From: a virus
Lineage: Duplodnaviria; Heunggongvirae; Uroviricota; Caudoviricetes
Virus record (IMG/VR): IMGVR_UViG_2703718810_000003
DNA length: 43,509 bases
Direction: 5' to 3' (one strand)
A program made the translations under genes and the position numbers. Under the pieces are notes generated by a model. That model had not been told where the DNA came from and did no database searches. It was given only the letters and a program-made list of their open reading frames with translations. Of this stretch, positions 36,054-42,088 are shown one piece after another. Each line of letters opens with the position of its first letter. Positions within the stretch are counted from its first letter, which is position 1.

Positions 36054-37037
36054 TCACCCCCTGAATCCCGGCGGTATTTCAGTGTCCGGTTCAGAAATGT
36101 GATTTACGCAACGCTGCGCGGGCGAACGCCCCAGGCGGATAACCAGTTCATCCCATTTTTCCCTGAGTTTTGCCGGACTCATGATGTTTTTTACCCAGAA
36201 CGAATCCCGCTGGACACGCCCAAACATTTCACAAATCTGCCGGTGACTACGTCCATCCAGCATACGCATCATGCGCACATCATTCGCCCAGGTCGTCCAG
36301 TTAGGTTCTCTGGGGCGTGACACCTCACCATCATCACTGGCGGCCTGTTCATACAACGCCACAACCCGTCCCCAAATCCACTGCGCACAGGCGACATCCT
36401 CACGGGTACCCCACTGTCGCTTCGGTACATTCCAGGTATGCGCATCTGGGTGTTTCTCCAGAAATCGCTCAACTGGTGATGATCGTTTTTCGTCCGGCAG
36501 TGAAACGTCCGGACAAGAAGATCTTTTATCTGACGGATCAGGTTTTAATACTGATGGATCGGGGTCAATCATCGCCCCCCTAATACGCAGTTTTTTATCA
36601 ACCGTTGATCCATCAACATTTGACGGGTCAACCGTTGAGGGGGCAATATTTGACGGGTTAACTGTTAACGGGTCATTTTTTGCCGGGCTAATTTTTCTTT
36701 TCGGTTTATATGCCTCACGCGCCGCAGTTGCAGCTGCTTCGAGTTTTTCCACATTAAGCCGATAGATATTGCTTACGTTACGCCCACCGACCTTACGCTC
36801 TTCCTTCGTCAGCCAGCCCTCTTTCGCCAGTTCTGCAATAGCAGATTTAACGGTGGATTCACTTCTTGCACCGATCTGACGCCGGATAGTTTCAATGGCA
36901 GGCCATGACACGCCCTCGTCATTGCTGTAGTCTGCAAGACGGGCCATAACCGCCACCCTGGATAAGATCATGCCGGTGAAGGCGCACCCTTCCCAGACAA
37001 GACCATGAAGCTTGCTGCTCATAAACCCCCCGAACAC
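36054..37037 (-). CDS. Replication initiator (O-like / replisome organiser) containing origin iterons
   Basis: N-terminal winged-helix-like domain; internal peptide repeats encoded by DNA iterons; directly upstream of the DnaC-like gene. Confidence 0.65.
   Translation of the reverse strand: MFGGFMSSKLHGLVWEGCAFTGMILSRVAVMARLADYSNDEGVSWPAIETIRRQIGARSESTVKSAIAELAKEGWLTKEERKVGGRNVSNIYRLNVEKLEAAATAAREAYKPKRKISPAKNDPLTVNPSNIAPSTVDPSNVDGSTVDKKLRIRGAMIDPDPSVLKPDPSDKRSSCPDVSLPDEKRSSPVERFLEKHPDAHTWNVPKRQWGTREDVACAQWIWGRVVALYEQAASDDGEVSRPREPNWTTWANDVRMMRMLDGRSHRQICEMFGRVQRDSFWVKNIMSPAKLREKWDELVIRLGRSPAQRCVNHISEPDTEIPPGFRG
36598..36687. repeat. Three 30-bp direct repeats (iterons) followed by AT-rich tract; candidate replication origin inside the initiator gene
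   Basis: TCAACCGTTGA...ATTTGACGGG units at 36598, 36628, 36658, each with an inverted-repeat core; AT-rich 36688..36710. Confidence 0.6.
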
Positions 37038-37044
37038 CGTGCTT

Positions 37045-37470
37045 TTAGTGCATCACCACAGCATTCCCTGCCGGGCCGCCGCGATTCATCTGGTCATACA
37101 AAACAACCGCTGACGCAACAAAATCATCGACATCCTTCACCAGCCGATCCCTCCGTTCGACGATCTCACGGTAATATTCAGAACTGTGGCTGCGCATACG
37201 GGCCACCAGCAAAGGCGGCATCGCCTTTTCGATCGCCGGTAACAGAGCCTGCATTTTTTCAACAGCATCAGGGGTGTCTTTATCCAGCCAACGGAAAATT
37301 TTCTGTGTATTACGGGCCAGGGCTTCCGGATGGCTGTCGTCGTACAGTTCAGGGAACGTCATCCCCAGTTCGAAATAAGTCCGGGCTATTTCAGCTGCAG
37401 GAACTTTCTCACCGTCCGGATAGGCCCAGGCATTGATCGCCATGCGGATGTGCTCATGCTTGATTTTCAT
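37045..37470 (-). CDS. CII-like regulator (YdaT-like)
   Basis: 141 aa beginning MKIKHEHIRMAINAWAYPDG, immediately downstream of the Cro-like gene; family by recollection of Rac ydaT. Confidence 0.5.
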   Translation of the reverse strand: MKIKHEHIRMAINAWAYPDGEKVPAAEIARTYFELGMTFPELYDDSHPEALARNTQKIFRWLDKDTPDAVEKMQALLPAIEKAMPPLLVARMRSHSSEYYREIVERRDRLVKDVDDFVASAVVLYDQMNRGGPAGNAVVMH

Positions 37471-37735
37471 GAATCAAGCTCCTAGAAAGTGGTTGTGTTA
37501 ACGTTTTGGTATCTTCCAGCTCAGGCCAAATATTCATCCAATCAAAAGGCCTTAGTTGCTGACGTGTAACTTCACCATTACTGGCTCGCTCAATAAGGAC
37601 ACATAACGATGCCCCTAACACTTGGCCTTTACTCAATGCCTTTCTTAGATAACCGATGCTGGTACCACACTCGCATGCAAACATACGCTGTTCATCTGAC
37701 GAAAGAGAATTGAGAAATATTCTTAATTCTTCCAT
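37454..37735 (-). CDS. Cro-like HTH regulator (YdaS-like)
   Basis: 93 aa; AGGAG RBS; divergent from repressor gene across operator-containing region. Confidence 0.55.
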   Translation of the reverse strand: MEELRIFLNSLSSDEQRMFACECGTSIGYLRKALSKGQVLGASLCVLIERASNGEVTRQQLRPFDWMNIWPELEDTKTLTQPLSRSLIHENQA

Positions 37736-37776: not shown

Positions 37777-37803
37777 AACAAAAGTCAATACCTTTGGGTT
37801 GTT

Positions 37804-37815
37804 TACCTTACGGTA
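37804..37815. promoter_or_regulatory. Operator-like site TACCTTACGGTA overlapping candidate repressor promoter
   Basis: Imperfect palindrome with the same half-sites; a third partial site TACCTATGG overlaps the repressor ATG. Confidence 0.45.
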
Positions 37816-37835
37816 ATCACATCTATTATTTACCT

Positions 37836-38255
37836 ATGGACAAATATGAATTTAGACGACAGCAGCTCATCAAAATTCGTGATGAGAAATGCGATGGTAA
37901 AGCGGTTAACGTAGCCAGAAAGATCGGTCGCGAGCCTTCTTATGTATCAAGAATGTTGTACCCAGAGGGGAAAAAGGGAAAAAAACGGATCGCTGATGAT
38001 ATGGTGGAGATTATCGAAGAGTCCTTTGGGTTACCCCGAGGATGGATGGATGGTATCGTTTCATCATCAACGAACACAGCCTCCAATTATGAAACAAGGG
38101 TTCTAACGCCACGACAACGTATTTTTTTAGATCTCTTAGACGAGCTGCCAGAAAGTGAAGCGGATAACTTATTAAAAACTCTTGAAGAGAAAAAACAGTA
38201 TTACAATATGATCTACGAAGAAATCCGTAAAAAGAAAGCACAAAACGCATCATAA
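37836..38255 (+). CDS. Prophage repressor (CI-functional analogue, RacR-like HTH protein); probably leaderless
   Basis: MDKYEFRRQQL... with HTH (VNVARKIGREPSYVSRML); TATTAT -10 only 7 nt upstream of ATG at 37836. Confidence 0.6.
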   Translation: MDKYEFRRQQLIKIRDEKCDGKAVNVARKIGREPSYVSRMLYPEGKKGKKRIADDMVEIIEESFGLPRGWMDGIVSSSTNTASNYETRVLTPRQRIFLDLLDELPESEADNLLKTLEEKKQYYNMIYEEIRKKKAQNAS

Positions 38256-38300: not shown

Positions 38301-38337
38301 TACCCATGGGTATTTACTTTTTGGGTACCCATGGGTA
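38301..38337 (+). promoter_or_regulatory. Candidate pL with two perfect 12-bp palindromic operators TACCCATGGGTA (38301..38312 and 38326..38337)
   Basis: Palindromes spaced 25 bp centre to centre; TTTACT-N17-TATGCT promoter-like hexamers at 38313..38341 with the second palindrome in the spacer. Confidence 0.5.
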
Positions 38338-38675: not shown

Positions 38676-39147
38676 TTAGCGCCAGTAAAAACAGGTTTCC
38701 ACAGGTTAATTTACCCTGAAAAGTCAGGGCATAACACGAAAGCGCACGGCGAGATTCCTTTGCATATAAGGTTAGATTTCTTCGACCGTGCGCTTCCGGT
38801 TGTGGCAATCCGCGAAATGGCGCGGCGGTAAGTATGGCGGGGTTATTCCTTCCCCCGTTGAGGACACCGGGTTGTCAGGTTGACCATACGCTTAAGTGAC
38901 ACCCCAGCCACAACAACCTCTGTTATCACTTTTCTGGTGATTCGGCGGAAATGAATATCCGCCCTTTTTAAAGTGAATTTTGTGATGCTGTGAATGCGGC
39001 TATGCGCACGCGGAACAGTTAAAGCAGTAAGGCGGTCTTTTACTGGCGTAACGAGCATCAACTAACCCGACGTTAATTGTTAACTGGTTAACGTCACCTG
39101 GAGGCACCAGGCGCTGCATCACAAAATTCATTGTTGAGGACGCGATA

Positions 39148-39336
39148 ATGGAAACGTTATTACCAAACGTTAATACGTCTGAAGGTTGTTTTGATATTGG
39201 TGTTCTGCTCAGTAATAAAGCGTTTACTGAGGATGCCATTAATATGCGGAAATATGAGCCTTATCTGCTCAATGATAATTCCATTCTTTCCCGAATTGCC
39301 CTTATTAAACTTGGTATTTTCGGAGAACGTCAATGA
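39148..39336 (+). CDS. Hypothetical 62-aa protein
   Basis: GAGGA RBS 8 nt upstream; AT-rich gene; followed by a 17-codon hydrophobic mini-ORF overlapping its stop. Confidence 0.35.
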   Translation: METLLPNVNTSEGCFDIGVLLSNKAFTEDAINMRKYEPYLLNDNSILSRIALIKLGIFGERQ

Positions 39337-39616
39337 CTTCAGCATTTGCACTGGTGATGACGGTTTTTCTTATAACGGGTGAATAACAGAATGTGATTAC
39401 CGGAATTTATGCCAGTAAAGAATCCTGCCTCCAGGCAAGAGACGAGCAAAAAATTTCTGGTGAATGCCTACCGGTAAAAAAAGTATCGCTGTACCTGAAT
39501 AACGAAACACCGGCTGGATAACCCGCCAGCCATATTAACGCCATACCAACGGATTAAAAATGCCAGCAATAGCAGGGATTCGTTCACCCTGAAATCTGTA
39601 ATGAGGTTAAAACACA

Positions 39617-42088
39617 ATGAATAAAATCTTTATTTGCGCTGCTATTCCTGACGAACAGGCCATAGAAGAAGATAGCGCTGTTGCGGTGGCCACTGCCATT
39701 GAAGCCGGTGATGAGCGTCGCGCACGCGCAAAATTTCACTGGCAATTTCTGGAGCAATTCCCGGCAGCTCAGGACTGCGCTTATAAATTTATTGTCTGCG
39801 AGGATAAACCCAGTATACCCCGCCCTGCCCTCGATTCCTGGGATACCGAATATATGCAGGAAAACCGCTGGGATGAGGAGTCTGCGTCCTTTGTCCCGGT
39901 CGAACCCGAATCCGATCCGATGAACGTCACTTTTGACAATCTGGCCCCTGAAGTACAGAACGCCGTCATGGTTAAGTTCGACGCATGTGAAAACATCACT
40001 GTTGATATGGTGATTAGCGCTCAGGAATTGTTGCAGGAAGACATGGCAACATTCGACGGCCATATCGTTGAAGCGTTGATGAAGATGCCAGAAGTTAACG
40101 CCATGTATCCGGAGCTTAAGCTGCATGCCATCGGGTGGGTTAAGCATAAATGTAAACCTGCTTCTAAATGGCCCGAAATTCAGGCAGAGATGCGCATCTG
40201 GAAAAAACGTCGCGAAAGTGAACGCAAGGAAACCGGGAAATACATATCTGTCGTTGATATCGCCCGTTCCAGAGTAAACCAACAGAACACTGAAAACGCT
40301 GCTGAAAAAACCGGGGCTGTCACTGTTGCCGTTCGCCGCGAATACAAACAGACATGGAAAACACTCGACAATGAACTGGCCTGCGCCCTCTGGCCCGGTG
40401 ATGTGGATGCAGGAAACATTGACGGTACCATCCATCGCTGGGCGACAAATGAGGTTATCGACAAGGATCGCGAAGACTGGAAGCGTATCTCAGCATCAAT
40501 GCGCAAACAGCCCGAAGCACTTGCCTATGACCGTCAGACTATTTTTGGCCTTGTTCGCGAACGTCCGATCGATATTCACAAAGATCCCGTTGCACTGAAC
40601 AAATATATCAGCGAATACCTGACGACAAAGGGCGTGTTTGAACATGAAGAAACAGACCAGAGCTCTGCTGATGCTCTCCAGTCACCAGCAGCACAAACTG
40701 CTCCAGTGGAGACGGCAGAATCCGATACTCAAAAAAATGAAATCCTGGTGGAAGCTGAACCATCTGTAGAGCGTGAAGGACCATTTTATTTCGTCTTTAC
40801 CGATAAGGGCGGGGAAAAATACGGCAGGGCAAACAAACTTTCTGGTCTGGACAGGGCGCTGGCTGCCGGCGGTACCGAAATCTCAAAAGAAGAATATTTT
40901 GCCCGAAAAAATGGCACATACACGGGCTTACCGCAAAATGTGGATAGCACTGAAGATTCCGAACAACCAGAGCCGGTAAAAGTTACCGCTGACGAAGTAA
41001 ACAAAATTATGCAGGCAGCCAATATCAGCCAGCCTGACGCCGATAAATTGCTTGCTGCATCACGTGGTGAATTTGTTGAAGGGATTAGCGACCCGGATGA
41101 TCCGAAATGGGTGAAAGGGATCCAGAGTCGCGACGCTGAGGACCAGAATCAGCCCAACGTGAAACAAAATGAGCCAGAAGCGGAACAAAACAGCCCGGAT
41201 ACGCAACAAAACGGGCCAGAAGAACAACAACCAGAACCAGCAGTGCAACAGGAACTGGAAAAAGTTTGCACCGCATGCGGTCAGACCGGTGGCGGCAACT
41301 GTCCTGACTGTGGTGCGGTGATGGGGAACGCAACCTACCAGGAAACATTCGATGAAGAGAATCAGGCTGAAGCTCAGGAAAATGATCCGGAGGAAATGGA
41401 AGGCACTGAACATCTGCACAAGGAGAACACTGTCAGCGATCAGTATCACGCCAGCGATAATAAAACTGGCGAAACAGCAAATCCCTTAATTAAAGTGAAC
41501 GGTCATCATGAAACCACATCCACCAGCAGGTTGTGGCACCATCTGATGATTGACCTTGAAACAATGGGAAAAAATCCTGATGCGCCAATAAACGCTATAG
41601 CCGGTAAGTTTTTTGATCCGGCAACCGGAGAGATGGGGCCAGAATTCAGCAAAACTATCGATCTGGAAACCGCAGGCGGGGTCATCGATCGGGACACCAT
41701 TAAGTGGTGGCTGAAACAGTCACGCGAAGCACAATCCGCCATTCTGACCGATGAAATCCCGTTGGATGATGCACTGCTGCAATTCCGGGAATTTATCGAC
41801 GAAAACTCCGGTGAATTTTTTGTTCAGGTCTGGGGTAACGGTGCAACTTTCGACAACGTGATTTTACGCCGTTCATATGAACGGCAGGGGATCCCCTGCC
41901 CGTGGCGTTACACCAATGATCGCGATGTAAGAACGATGGTTGCTCTGGGACTGGTGATGGATTTCGACGCAAGAACGACTATTCCATTCGAAGGTGAACG
42001 CCATAACGCGCTGCACGATGCGCGTTACCAAGCAAAATACGTTTCAGCCATCTGGCAAAAACTGATCCCGAGTCAGGCTGATTTTTAA
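39617..42088 (+). CDS. Large exonuclease: acidic ~600-aa N-terminal region plus C-terminal DEDDh (DnaQ-like) 3'-5' exonuclease domain
   Basis: C-terminal motifs MIDLETMG (Exo I), VWGNGATFDNVIL (Exo II), HNALHDARYQAKY (Exo III); upstream region rich in D/E/Q; located where lambda carries exo/bet/gam and Rac carries recET. Confidence 0.7.
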   Translation: MNKIFICAAIPDEQAIEEDSAVAVATAIEAGDERRARAKFHWQFLEQFPAAQDCAYKFIVCEDKPSIPRPALDSWDTEYMQENRWDEESASFVPVEPESDPMNVTFDNLAPEVQNAVMVKFDACENITVDMVISAQELLQEDMATFDGHIVEALMKMPEVNAMYPELKLHAIGWVKHKCKPASKWPEIQAEMRIWKKRRESERKETGKYISVVDIARSRVNQQNTENAAEKTGAVTVAVRREYKQTWKTLDNELACALWPGDVDAGNIDGTIHRWATNEVIDKDREDWKRISASMRKQPEALAYDRQTIFGLVRERPIDIHKDPVALNKYISEYLTTKGVFEHEETDQSSADALQSPAAQTAPVETAESDTQKNEILVEAEPSVEREGPFYFVFTDKGGEKYGRANKLSGLDRALAAGGTEISKEEYFARKNGTYTGLPQNVDSTEDSEQPEPVKVTADEVNKIMQAANISQPDADKLLAASRGEFVEGISDPDDPKWVKGIQSRDAEDQNQPNVKQNEPEAEQNSPDTQQNGPEEQQPEPAVQQELEKVCTACGQTGGGNCPDCGAVMGNATYQETFDEENQAEAQENDPEEMEGTEHLHKENTVSDQYHASDNKTGETANPLIKVNGHHETTSTSRLWHHLMIDLETMGKNPDAPINAIAGKFFDPATGEMGPEFSKTIDLETAGGVIDRDTIKWWLKQSREAQSAILTDEIPLDDALLQFREFIDENSGEFFVQVWGNGATFDNVILRRSYERQGIPCPWRYTNDRDVRTMVALGLVMDFDARTTIPFEGERHNALHDARYQAKYVSAIWQKLIPSQADF

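What the first reader, a model, noticed from the sequence alone, without database searches (positions are those of the whole stretch)
36598..36710. Origin-like iteron array inside the replication initiator gene
Three 30-bp direct repeats with inverted-repeat cores followed by an AT-rich tract lie inside the O-like ORF and encode short peptide repeats in it. This parallels ori-lambda, which sits inside gene O.
Basis: partly seen in the sequence, partly recalled or inferred. Interest (0 to 1): 0.45.

Follow-up and report, generated by a model that had tools for sequence, protein, structure and literature searches.

The report
Prophage replication origin inside initiator gene
The repeats are almost certainly the replication origin of an E. 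coli prophage, built like the classic lambda origin inside its own initiator gene; it is a new example of a well-known design, and this copy is probably inactive.

Summary
Window 36598-36687 holds five good 15-bp units and one degenerate unit. Each has a palindromic core TCAA-N3-TTGA. This is the strongest tandem periodicity in the 43.5-kb window. It lies in the linker-coding part of a minus-strand O-like initiator gene (36054-37022) in a Rac-type E. coli prophage.

Evidence for a DNA-level role:
- Across 31 distinct units from relatives, the invariant positions are wobble bases, while the encoded residues vary.
- Synonymous codons are conserved over aa 105-180, where the protein is least conserved and is predicted to be disordered.

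The initiator has a winged-helix N-domain (HTH_36), a C-domain homologous to lambda O and phi80 gp15, and a DnaC-like loader gene downstream. Lambda, phi80 and P22 carry annotated iterons at the same relative position.

- The basic unit is 15 bp; the 30-bp period comes from two alternating subtypes.
- The cited AT tract (36688-36710) lies upstream in gene sense. The counterpart of the lambda/phi80 AT-rich region is on the other side, at 36519-36560, and is rich in GATC.

In this window the loader gene carries a nonsense codon, so the origin is probably a relic. Verdict: a new member of a known kind. Origin function is not tested.

The parts
36054..37022 (-). O-like replication initiator gene (322 aa). 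N-terminal winged helix aa 1-104, disordered linker aa 110-180, helical C-domain aa 183-297.
   Evidence: ORF. RefSeq CDS of the 99.9% identical record. Pfam HTH_36 aa 30-76. PHROG 391 full length, E 2.9e-105. AlphaFold2 domain pattern. tblastn to lambda O C-domain, E 3e-17.
36598..36687 (.). Iteron array of six 15-bp units. Cores at 36598-36608, 36613-36623, 36628-36638, 36643-36653, 36658-36668, and a degenerate one at 36673-36683. Palindromic core TCAA-N3-TTGA.
   Evidence: Family-wide unit matrix: positions 6, 7 and 12 are invariant in 31/31 distinct units, although the encoded residues vary.
36565..36575 (.). Isolated degenerate iteron (gene sense GCGATGATTGA, flanked by G and C runs) next to the GATC/A-rich element. 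It is a perfect iteron (GGGGTCAATGGTTGACCCC) in relative L090.
   Evidence: Sequence. Relatives.
36519..36560 (.). Paired element, gene sense GATCCATCAGTATTAAAACCT / GATCCGTCAGATAAAAGATCT. It is the candidate DNA-unwinding region and the counterpart of the phi80/lambda AT-rich segment.
   Evidence: Least stable 40-mers of the gene start at 36511-36521, and only 1.2% of window 40-mers are less stable. Resemblance to phi80 CAGTATTAAAAGATCTTCGTCCGAG. Pair present in 120 of 131 distinct family genes. GATC at 36481, 36520, 36536, 36557 and 36607 is the densest cluster in the window.
36688..36710 (.). It lies upstream of the iterons in gene sense and encodes the basic stretch KPKRKIS. It is an alternative candidate for the unwinding region.
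   Evidence: It is part of a 40-mer with 67.5% A+T, equal to the maximum on the other flank.
36057..36116 (-). C-terminal tail QRCVNHISEPDTEIPPGFRG, 70% identical to the last 20 residues of E. coli DnaT. Candidate docking peptide for the DnaC-type loader.
   Evidence: Tail-loader association.
35301..36047 (-). DnaC-like helicase loader gene, inactivated by a nonsense codon at 35781-35783 (codon 89).
   Evidence: Annotated as a pseudogene. Intact homologue is 49% identical to E. coli DnaC. The stop is confined to this lineage.
37045..37470 (-). CII-like / YdaT-family regulator gene immediately upstream in the same operon.
   Evidence: Pfam YdaT_toxin. PHROG 163, CII-like activator.
37454..37735 (-). 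Cro-like / YdaS-family regulator, first gene of the early operon that reads through the origin.
   Evidence: Promoter-like site at 37788-37761 on the minus strand.

Best explanation
The array is the initiator-binding part of the replication origin of a Rac-type lambdoid prophage of E. coli. The origin is embedded in the segment of the O-like initiator gene that encodes a disordered inter-domain linker.

Inferred mechanism, by analogy with lambda O:
1. Dimers of the initiator's N-terminal winged-helix domain bind the palindromic TCAA-N3-TTGA cores, which are spaced 15 bp apart, and assemble a nucleoprotein complex.
2. This complex destabilises an adjacent A+T-rich segment. The most likely one is the GATC-rich paired element at 36519-36560, on the C-terminal side. 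The tract at 36688-36710 is less likely.
3. The lambda-O-like C-domain and the DnaT-like tail bring in DnaB through the DnaC-like loader encoded next.

Shown here: the repeats, their palindromic anatomy, selection on the DNA rather than the peptide, the domain layout, and the homologies. Inferred: binding, unwinding and helicase recruitment.

In this window the loader gene carries a nonsense codon. This copy of the origin is therefore probably a relic, unless host DnaC substitutes.
For: 1. The repeat is real and is the top periodicity in the window.

2. There is DNA-level constraint in the units. In 31 distinct 15-nt units from 23 arrays, the wobble base of codon 2 is A in 31/31 while the residue is S, L, P or A. 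The wobble base of codon 4 is T in 31/31 while the residue is V, I, N or F. The palindrome centre and the spacer vary freely.

3. Synonymous sites are conserved across the linker. Codon identity given the same residue is 0.84-1.00 over aa 111-180, against about 0.5-0.75 in most of the two domains. Over aa 105-180 the linker exceeds the rest of the gene in all 13 pairwise comparisons, with p below 0.01 in 12 of them, while amino-acid identity there is lower in all but one.

4. The linker aa 110-180 is predicted disordered and lies between a winged-helix N-domain and a helical C-domain. The fold resembles dimeric winged-helix regulators.

5. The C-domain is homologous to lambda O (E 3e-17) and phi80 gp15 (E 4e-25). 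PHROG 391 'replication initiation O-like' matches over the full length.

6. Lambda, phi80 and P22 records annotate iterons or an origin at the same relative place in their initiator genes, followed by an AT-rich region (PMC7466680).

7. The N-domain and repeat linker travel together while the C-domain is exchanged (L252-L257, phiP27, YeP2). A second N-domain type carries a different unit, TCAAAATCTGA.

8. A loader gene lies immediately downstream.
Against: - There is no experimental evidence for binding or for origin activity in this protein family. I found no paper describing it.
- The A+T-rich flanks are modest: 67.5% A+T over 40 bp, against 80% in lambda. Which flank melts is undecided.
- A 15-bp spacing puts neighbouring sites on nearly opposite faces of the helix. 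This differs from the 20-24-bp spacing in lambda and phi80, so not every unit need be occupied.
- Units within an array share recent ancestry through slippage. Copy number varies from 2 to 8. This inflates apparent conservation.
- The two N-domain types have similar units, so the covariation evidence is weak.
- The loader is a pseudogene here.
Confidence: 0.8

Rival explanations
1. The repeats are binding sites for the initiator or another protein, but they serve regulation rather than origin firing. Possible roles are autoregulation, copy-number control by handcuffing, or exclusion of related phages. The true origin would lie elsewhere.
For: The DNA-level constraint shows a DNA function but not which one. 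The flanking A+T-rich tracts are weak. A cloned piece of the lambda replication region is known to inhibit the plating of related phages (abstract of PMC3349717).
Against: The position, the order of elements and the partial DNA resemblance to the phi80 origin match the classical origin layout. No other copy of the core exists in the window, for example at the operon promoter. No other comparable repeat array sits in the replication module.
Confidence: 0.1
2. The repeat is only a slippage-prone low-complexity linker. The pentapeptide repeat (D/N)-P-S-(N/T)-(V/I) is what matters, or nothing is selected, and the DNA symmetry is incidental.
For: Copy number changes in 15-bp steps between near-identical genes. 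The encoded segment is predicted disordered.
Against: The invariant positions are wobble bases while the residues change (S/L/P/A and V/I/N/F). The variable positions include first and second codon positions. Synonymous identity is higher in the linker than in the folded domains in 13 of 13 comparisons. A peptide-level repeat does not predict a palindrome.
Confidence: 0.05
3. The palindromes act in the mRNA, as hairpins that affect translation or stability of the initiator transcript.
For: The minus-strand RNA of 36480-36720 folds better than all 200 shuffles (z -3.6).
Against: Any array of palindromes gives such a score. The arms are conserved in sequence (TCAA/TTGA) rather than covarying. 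There is no Rfam match. The same layout in lambda, phi80 and P22 is a DNA origin.
Confidence: 0.03

Closest known systems
ori-lambda inside gene O of phage lambda (four 18-bp iterons at 39034-39118, then an AT-rich region)
   Same: Tandem initiator-binding repeats with internal dyad symmetry lie in the middle of the initiator gene, at about aa 116-145, in the segment between the DNA-binding and loader-binding domains. An A+T-rich segment lies next to them. The C-domain of the initiator is homologous (40% identity, E 3e-17). A loader gene follows (PMC7466680).
   Different: The N-domain is Pfam HTH_36, not Phage_rep_O. The unit is 15 bp with core TCAA-N3-TTGA, against 18-bp iterons spaced 20-24 bp. 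The A+T-rich segment is weaker (67.5% against 80%) and is separated from the array by about 40 bp holding one degenerate iteron. The loader is DnaC-type, not P-type. The extreme C-terminus is DnaT-like.
phi80 origin inside gene 15 (four annotated gp15-binding sites, JX871397 36663-36739)
   Same: Same layout. The C-domain is 33% identical (E 4e-25). The segment after the iterons, CAGTATTAAAAGATCTTCGTCCGAG, resembles window gene nt 469-510 apart from one extra 21-bp unit.
   Different: The phi80 iterons (TTCCCGAAAACGGGAA type, 21-bp period) and its N-domain (Phage_rep_O) are unrelated to those here.
P22 origin inside gene 18
   Same: The record annotates a rep_origin inside the initiator gene. 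In the sequence, repeats are followed by an AT-rich run.
   Different: There is no detectable protein similarity (E 2.8). The repeat sequence differs, and the partner is a DnaB-type helicase.
Initiators of Shigella phages SfII and SfIV, phage mEp460 and Klebsiella prophages (same PHROG 391 family)
   Same: About 50% identical over the full length. They have the same 15-bp repeat linker, the same paired GATCCGTCA element and the same C-domain.
   Different: Their N-domain subtype is 'MSTKLTGYVWD' with unit TCAAAATCTGA. No phage loader follows; a PerC-like or a Dam-type methylase gene does.
Replication module ydaS-ydaT-ydaU-ydaV of the K-12 Rac prophage
   Same: Same gene order: Cro-like, CII-like/YdaT, initiator slot, DnaC-like loader, then a downstream gene in the slot that holds a DUF1627 gene here (YdaW in Rac).
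   Different: K-12 YdaU is a DUF1376 protein, not an HTH_36/O-like protein, so the initiator differs. I did not examine the Rac origin itself.

Membership tests
Lambdoid origin embedded in the initiator gene (ori-lambda type) | Three or more tandem repeats with internal dyad symmetry inside the initiator gene | tested here: met
   Five good 15-bp units and one degenerate unit, with TCAA-N3-TTGA cores, at 36598-36687 inside gene 36054-37022.
Lambdoid origin embedded in the initiator gene (ori-lambda type) | Repeats lie in the segment between the N-terminal DNA-binding domain and the C-terminal loader-binding domain | tested here: met
   The repeats encode aa 116-143. AlphaFold2 gives a winged helix at aa 1-104, disorder at aa 110-180 and a helical domain at aa 183-297. 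Iterons lie at about aa 117-144 in lambda O and about aa 122-147 in phi80 gp15.
Lambdoid origin embedded in the initiator gene (ori-lambda type) | A+T-rich unwinding region next to the iterons, downstream in gene sense | tested here: inconclusive
   The least stable 40-mers of the gene are at 36511-36560, downstream in gene sense. They resemble the phi80 AT-rich segment. However, the region is only 67.5% A+T, lies about 40 bp from the array, and an equally A+T-rich tract lies on the other flank.
Lambdoid origin embedded in the initiator gene (ori-lambda type) | Selection acts on the DNA sequence, not only on the encoded peptide | tested here: met
   Invariant wobble positions with varying residues. 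Synonymous identity is higher in the linker in 13 of 13 comparisons.
Lambdoid origin embedded in the initiator gene (ori-lambda type) | The initiator binds the repeats specifically | not testable with these tools
   Needs a gel shift or footprint with the purified protein.
Lambdoid origin embedded in the initiator gene (ori-lambda type) | The fragment supports initiator-dependent replication | not testable with these tools
   Needs an origin-cloning assay.
Lambdoid origin embedded in the initiator gene (ori-lambda type) | Helicase loader or helicase gene immediately downstream of the initiator gene | tested here: met
   A DnaC-like gene lies at 35301-36047. It is interrupted by a nonsense codon in this window.
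Lambda O protein family | N-terminal Phage_rep_O domain (Pfam PF04492) | tested here: not met
   The window protein matches HTH_36 only. Lambda O and phi80 gp15 match PF04492. PMC5509034 reports that profile comparison also finds HTH_36 in lambda O, so the two N-domains may be distantly related. I did not test this.
Lambda O protein family | C-terminal domain homologous to the lambda O loader-binding domain | tested here: met
   tblastn aa 192-302 against lambda 39220-39516, 40.5% identity, E 3e-17. BLASTP against phi80 gp15, E 4e-25.
PHROG 391, 'replication initiation O-like' | Full-length profile match | tested here: met
   E 2.9e-105, residues 1-322 on profile positions 1-298 of 298.
K-12 Rac prophage replication module (YdaU initiator) | Initiator homologous to YdaU (DUF1376) | tested here: not met
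   K-12 ydaU is annotated as DUF1376. The window protein has no such Pfam match.
Iteron plasmid origins (Rep proteins of pPS10, F, R6K, RK2 type) | Iterons outside the rep gene, with DnaA boxes and an AT-rich region in an intergenic origin | tested here: not met
   The array is inside the coding sequence. The only nearby DnaA box (36745-36753) is confined to one clade and is consistent with chance.

The most novel reading that the evidence does not exclude
The most novel reading concerns helicase recruitment, not the iterons. The extreme C-terminal tail of these initiators may be a portable docking peptide that selects the helicase loader.

The tail here (VNHISEPDTEIPPGFRG) is 70% identical to the last 20 residues of host DnaT. 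It is followed by a gene 49% identical to host DnaC, which mirrors the host dnaT-dnaC operon. In 252 loci, ..GFRG-type tails never precede a lambda-P-type loader. All six initiators that are followed by a P-type loader have W-rich tails of the lambda O kind.

If true, the same peptide in DnaT would be the contact by which the restart preprimosome recruits DnaB-DnaC, a step still unexplained. It would also fit an origin of the host dnaT-dnaC operon from a phage initiator-loader module of this kind; I have not examined that.
Probability: 0.2. Interest if true: 0.6.

Novelty: new member of a known kind. Interest (0 to 1): 0.3.

Why it matters
This replication module is common. A related initiator gene is present in 1818 of 5426 complete E. 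coli genomes, including O157:H7 and O104:H4 strains. YdaT-plus-HTH_36 modules are also reported in two Shiga-toxin phage replication types, Eru8 and Eru11, in a paper that never mentions iterons (PMC8951638).

Knowing the probable origin and its recognition sequence gives three things:
- a concrete target for testing how these prophages replicate after induction;
- a way to build compatible phage-derived replicons;
- a marker of origin specificity types within the family.

It does not change the general picture. The lambda design, with the origin written into the linker of its own initiator gene, simply recurs with a different DNA-binding domain and a shorter repeat.

Tried and rejected
- Megablast of the gene against the phage collection found nothing. 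Only protein-level search linked it to phages.
- K-12 Rac YdaU turned out to be a different protein, DUF1376.
- P22 gp18 is not detectably related.
- A perfect DnaA box at 36745-36753 looked interesting. It is limited to the E. coli clade and is lost through synonymous changes elsewhere. Six such boxes occur in the window, so I treat it as chance.
- The oriC-type 13-mer match at 36520 has two mismatches, like 21 other sites in the window, so it is not evidence.
- No IHF consensus site lies in 36300-36900.
- No Rfam family matches. The strong RNA-fold z-score is what any palindrome array gives.
- The genome-contig scan gave one distant locus only.
- Structure search against solved structures gave only generic winged-helix matches, none with E at or below 0.001.
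- The papers on Eru replication types of Shiga-toxin phages do not mention iterons. Literature searches found no description of this origin.
- Covariation between N-domain type and repeat type rests on two main lineages with similar units. I do not count it as strong evidence.

Full report
**What is there**

On the + strand, 36598-36687 reads as six 15-bp units: TCAACCGTTGAtcca, TCAACATTTGAcggg, TCAACCGTTGAgggg, GCAATATTTGAcggg, TTAACTGTTAAcggg and TCATTTTTTGCcggg. The repeat finder reports a 30-nt family with copies at 36598, 36613, 36628 and 36658. Tandem Repeats Finder reports both period 15 (4.2 copies) and period 30 (2.3 copies).

Each unit has an 11-bp core with arms TCAA and TTGA around three free bases. 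Two core subtypes alternate, ACGGTT-type and AATATT/AATGTT-type in gene sense.

The array is not a chance feature:
- Self-match over 75 positions at lag 30 (52/75, z 7.5) and lag 15 (49/75, z 6.8) gives the two highest values for any lag from 4 to 60 anywhere in the 43.5-kb window.
- All three exact TCAANNNTTGA matches in the window are in the array.
- None of 2000 shuffles has three cores within 45 bp.

**Context**

The array lies in a minus-strand gene, 36054-37022, encoding 322 aa from the ATG used in RefSeq. The window is an E. coli prophage. The gene is 99.9% identical to one in strain LZSFT34, where it is flanked by dicB, a RecE-like exonuclease, excisionase and integrase genes.

The gene order on the minus strand is as follows:
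- a Cro-like/YdaS gene (37454-37735);
- a CII-like/YdaT gene (37045-37470);
- the initiator;
- a DnaC-like loader (35301-36047);
- a DUF1627 gene.

This is the layout of the K-12 Rac module. However, K-12 YdaU is a DUF1376 protein, so the initiator differs. A related initiator gene occurs in 1818 of 5426 complete E. coli genomes.

**The protein**

- Pfam finds HTH_36 at aa 30-76.
- PHROG 391, 'replication initiation O-like', matches end to end with E 2.9e-105.
- The C-domain (aa 192-302) matches lambda O at 39220-39516 with 40.5% identity, E 3e-17.
- It also matches phi80 gp15 with E 4e-25.
- Lambda O and phi80 gp15 have a Phage_rep_O N-domain instead of HTH_36.
- P22 gp18 is unrelated.
- AlphaFold2, run with a 20-sequence alignment, gives a winged helix at aa 1-104 (pLDDT 74-89), no structure at aa 110-180 (pLDDT below 50) and a helical domain at aa 183-297.
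- Fold matches are generic dimeric winged-helix regulators and the DnaD N-domain, with weak E-values.

The repeats encode aa 116-143 of the disordered linker: DPLTV NPSNI APSTV DPSNV DGSTV.

**Is the selection on DNA or on the peptide?**

I collected about 250 related loci. They hold 127 distinct genes and 87 distinct proteins. All have pentapeptide (15-bp) repeats in the linker. Copy number ranges from 2 to 8 and changes in 15-bp steps between near-identical genes.

For the 'MSSKL' N-domain type, I took 31 distinct units from 23 distinct arrays and put them in the register CCG TCA AAT ATT GAC:
- Position 6, the wobble base of codon 2, is A in 31/31, although the residue is S, L, P or A.
- Position 7 is A in 31/31.
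- Position 12, the wobble base of codon 4, is T in 31/31, although the residue is V, I, N or F.
- The three central bases and the spacer codon are close to random.

This is the reverse of what protein-level selection gives. It maps exactly onto a symmetric DNA site.

For the 'MSTKL' type (SfII, SfIV, Klebsiella), the unit is TCAAAATCTGA(C/T) plus one free codon that encodes P, A, T, L or Q.

Independently, I compared the window gene with 13 diverse relatives. Codon identity at positions with the same residue is 0.84-1.00 over aa 111-180, against about 0.5-0.75 in most of the two folded domains. Amino-acid identity is lowest in the linker. Over aa 105-180 the linker exceeds the rest of the gene in 13 of 13 comparisons, and 12 have Fisher p below 0.01. 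The constrained DNA therefore spans roughly 36483-36710. This is wider than the array.

**Comparison with known origins**

The lambda record annotates four iterons at 39034-39118, about aa 117-144 of O. They are followed by an 80% A+T 40-mer. The phi80 record annotates four gp15-binding sites at about aa 122-147, followed by ...AACAGTATTAAAAGATCTTCGTCCGAG. The P22 record annotates a rep_origin inside gene 18, and its sequence shows repeats followed by an AT-rich run. [quoted passage not shown] In all three phages the AT-rich region follows the iterons in gene sense.

On the other side, after about 40 bp that hold one degenerate iteron (36565-36575), lies GATCCATCAGTATTAAAACCT GATCCGTCAGATAAAAGATCT, at 36519-36560. 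Several observations mark this segment:
- It contains the least stable 40-mers of the gene; only 1.2% of window 40-mers are less stable.
- It resembles the phi80 AT-rich segment apart from one extra 21-bp unit.
- It sits in the densest GATC cluster of the window.
- The pair GATCCNTCA plus an A-run, spaced 18, 21 or 24 bp, occurs in 120 of 131 distinct family genes. These include genes whose C-domain is of another kind.

I take this segment as the more likely unwinding region. Both flanks reach the same 67.5% A+T, so the choice is open.

**Modularity**

The N-domain and repeat linker occur with other C-domains: L252-L257 (355 aa), phiP27 L17 (followed by DnaC and a helicase) and YeP2 (Phg_2220_C). 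More distant O-like genes carry other repeats at the same place: three 21-bp units in Edwardsiella phage GF-2 and two longer units in a Citrobacter locus. This fits the rule that the N-domain and the repeats form one specificity unit, while the C-domain handles the loader.

**State of this copy**

The DnaC-like gene has a stop at codon 89 (35781-35783), where relatives have Gln. RefSeq marks it, and the DUF1627 gene, as pseudogenes in the near-identical record. The stop is found only in the near-identical lineage. In 68 of 78 relatives with this gene, the reading frame is open for 246-248 residues. The intact protein is 49% identical to E. coli DnaC. This origin is therefore probably silent unless host DnaC substitutes.

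**Rivals**

- A purely peptide-level or neutral slippage repeat is contradicted.
- An mRNA structure is possible in principle (z -3.6). However, the arms are conserved in sequence rather than covarying, and there is no Rfam match.
- A regulatory or copy-control role for the same binding sites cannot be excluded by computation.

**Side observation**

The last 20 residues are 70% identical to the C-terminus of E. coli DnaT. In 252 loci, none of the 237 initiators with a ..GFRG-type tail is followed by a lambda-P-type loader: 107 are followed by a DnaC-like gene, and the rest have no DnaC- or P-type loader gene directly downstream. All six initiators followed by a Pfam Phage_lambda_P gene have W-rich tails of the lambda O kind. 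PMC13377028 states that how DnaT recruits DnaB/DnaC is unknown. The lineages are few, so this is a lead only.

**Verdict**

Origin function is untested, and this copy is probably decayed.

Noticed in passing
window 36057-36116 (minus strand); loci L250, L090, L002, L170: The initiator's last 20 residues are 70% identical to the C-terminus of host DnaT, and the next gene is DnaC-like, which mirrors the host dnaT-dnaC operon. Across 252 loci, GFRG-type tails never precede a lambda-P-type loader. All six initiators followed by a P-type loader have W-rich tails.
   Followed up: partly
window 35781-35783 (minus strand), in gene 35301-36047: A nonsense codon replaces Gln at codon 89 of the DnaC-like loader. 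It occurs only in the near-identical lineage (L001, L008, L010). Most relatives are intact.
   Followed up: yes
window 34563-35279 (minus strand): The DUF1627 gene downstream of the loader is also interrupted. It is annotated 'internal stop' in the 99.9% identical RefSeq record. The early region of this prophage is therefore decaying.
   Followed up: partly
window 36519-36560; L170 2466-3272; L259: A conserved pair of GATCCNTCA plus an A-run occurs in 120 of 131 distinct family genes. It lies in the densest GATC cluster of the window. In Klebsiella relatives the gene after the initiator is a D12-class (Dam-type) adenine methylase, and YeP2 has one nearby. This hints at methylation or SeqA control.
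   Followed up: partly
window 36745-36753 (+ strand): A perfect DnaA-box consensus TTTTCCACA lies 35 bp from the T-rich tract. It is confined to the E. coli clade and is lost by synonymous changes elsewhere. Six such boxes occur in the window, so it is probably chance.
   Followed up: yes
relatives L170/L178/L180/L190, L090/L091, L003/L005: The number of 15-bp units differs (2 to 8) between otherwise near-identical initiator genes. The origin therefore gains and loses iterons by slippage while staying in frame.
   Followed up: partly
window 41144-41220: This is the third-strongest short periodicity of the window (21 bp, 48/75 matches). It lies in a Gln/Glu/Pro-rich stretch of the RecE-like exonuclease gene.
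   Followed up: no
window 38301-38337 (+ strand): A long palindrome (16-pair stem, TACCCATGGGTA...) followed by a T-rich run lies just after the repressor-like gene 37794-38255.
   Followed up: no
window 36271-36765 (+ strand): A 164-codon antisense ORF spans the array. It is listed mechanically, and I found no evidence that it is a gene.
   Followed up: no
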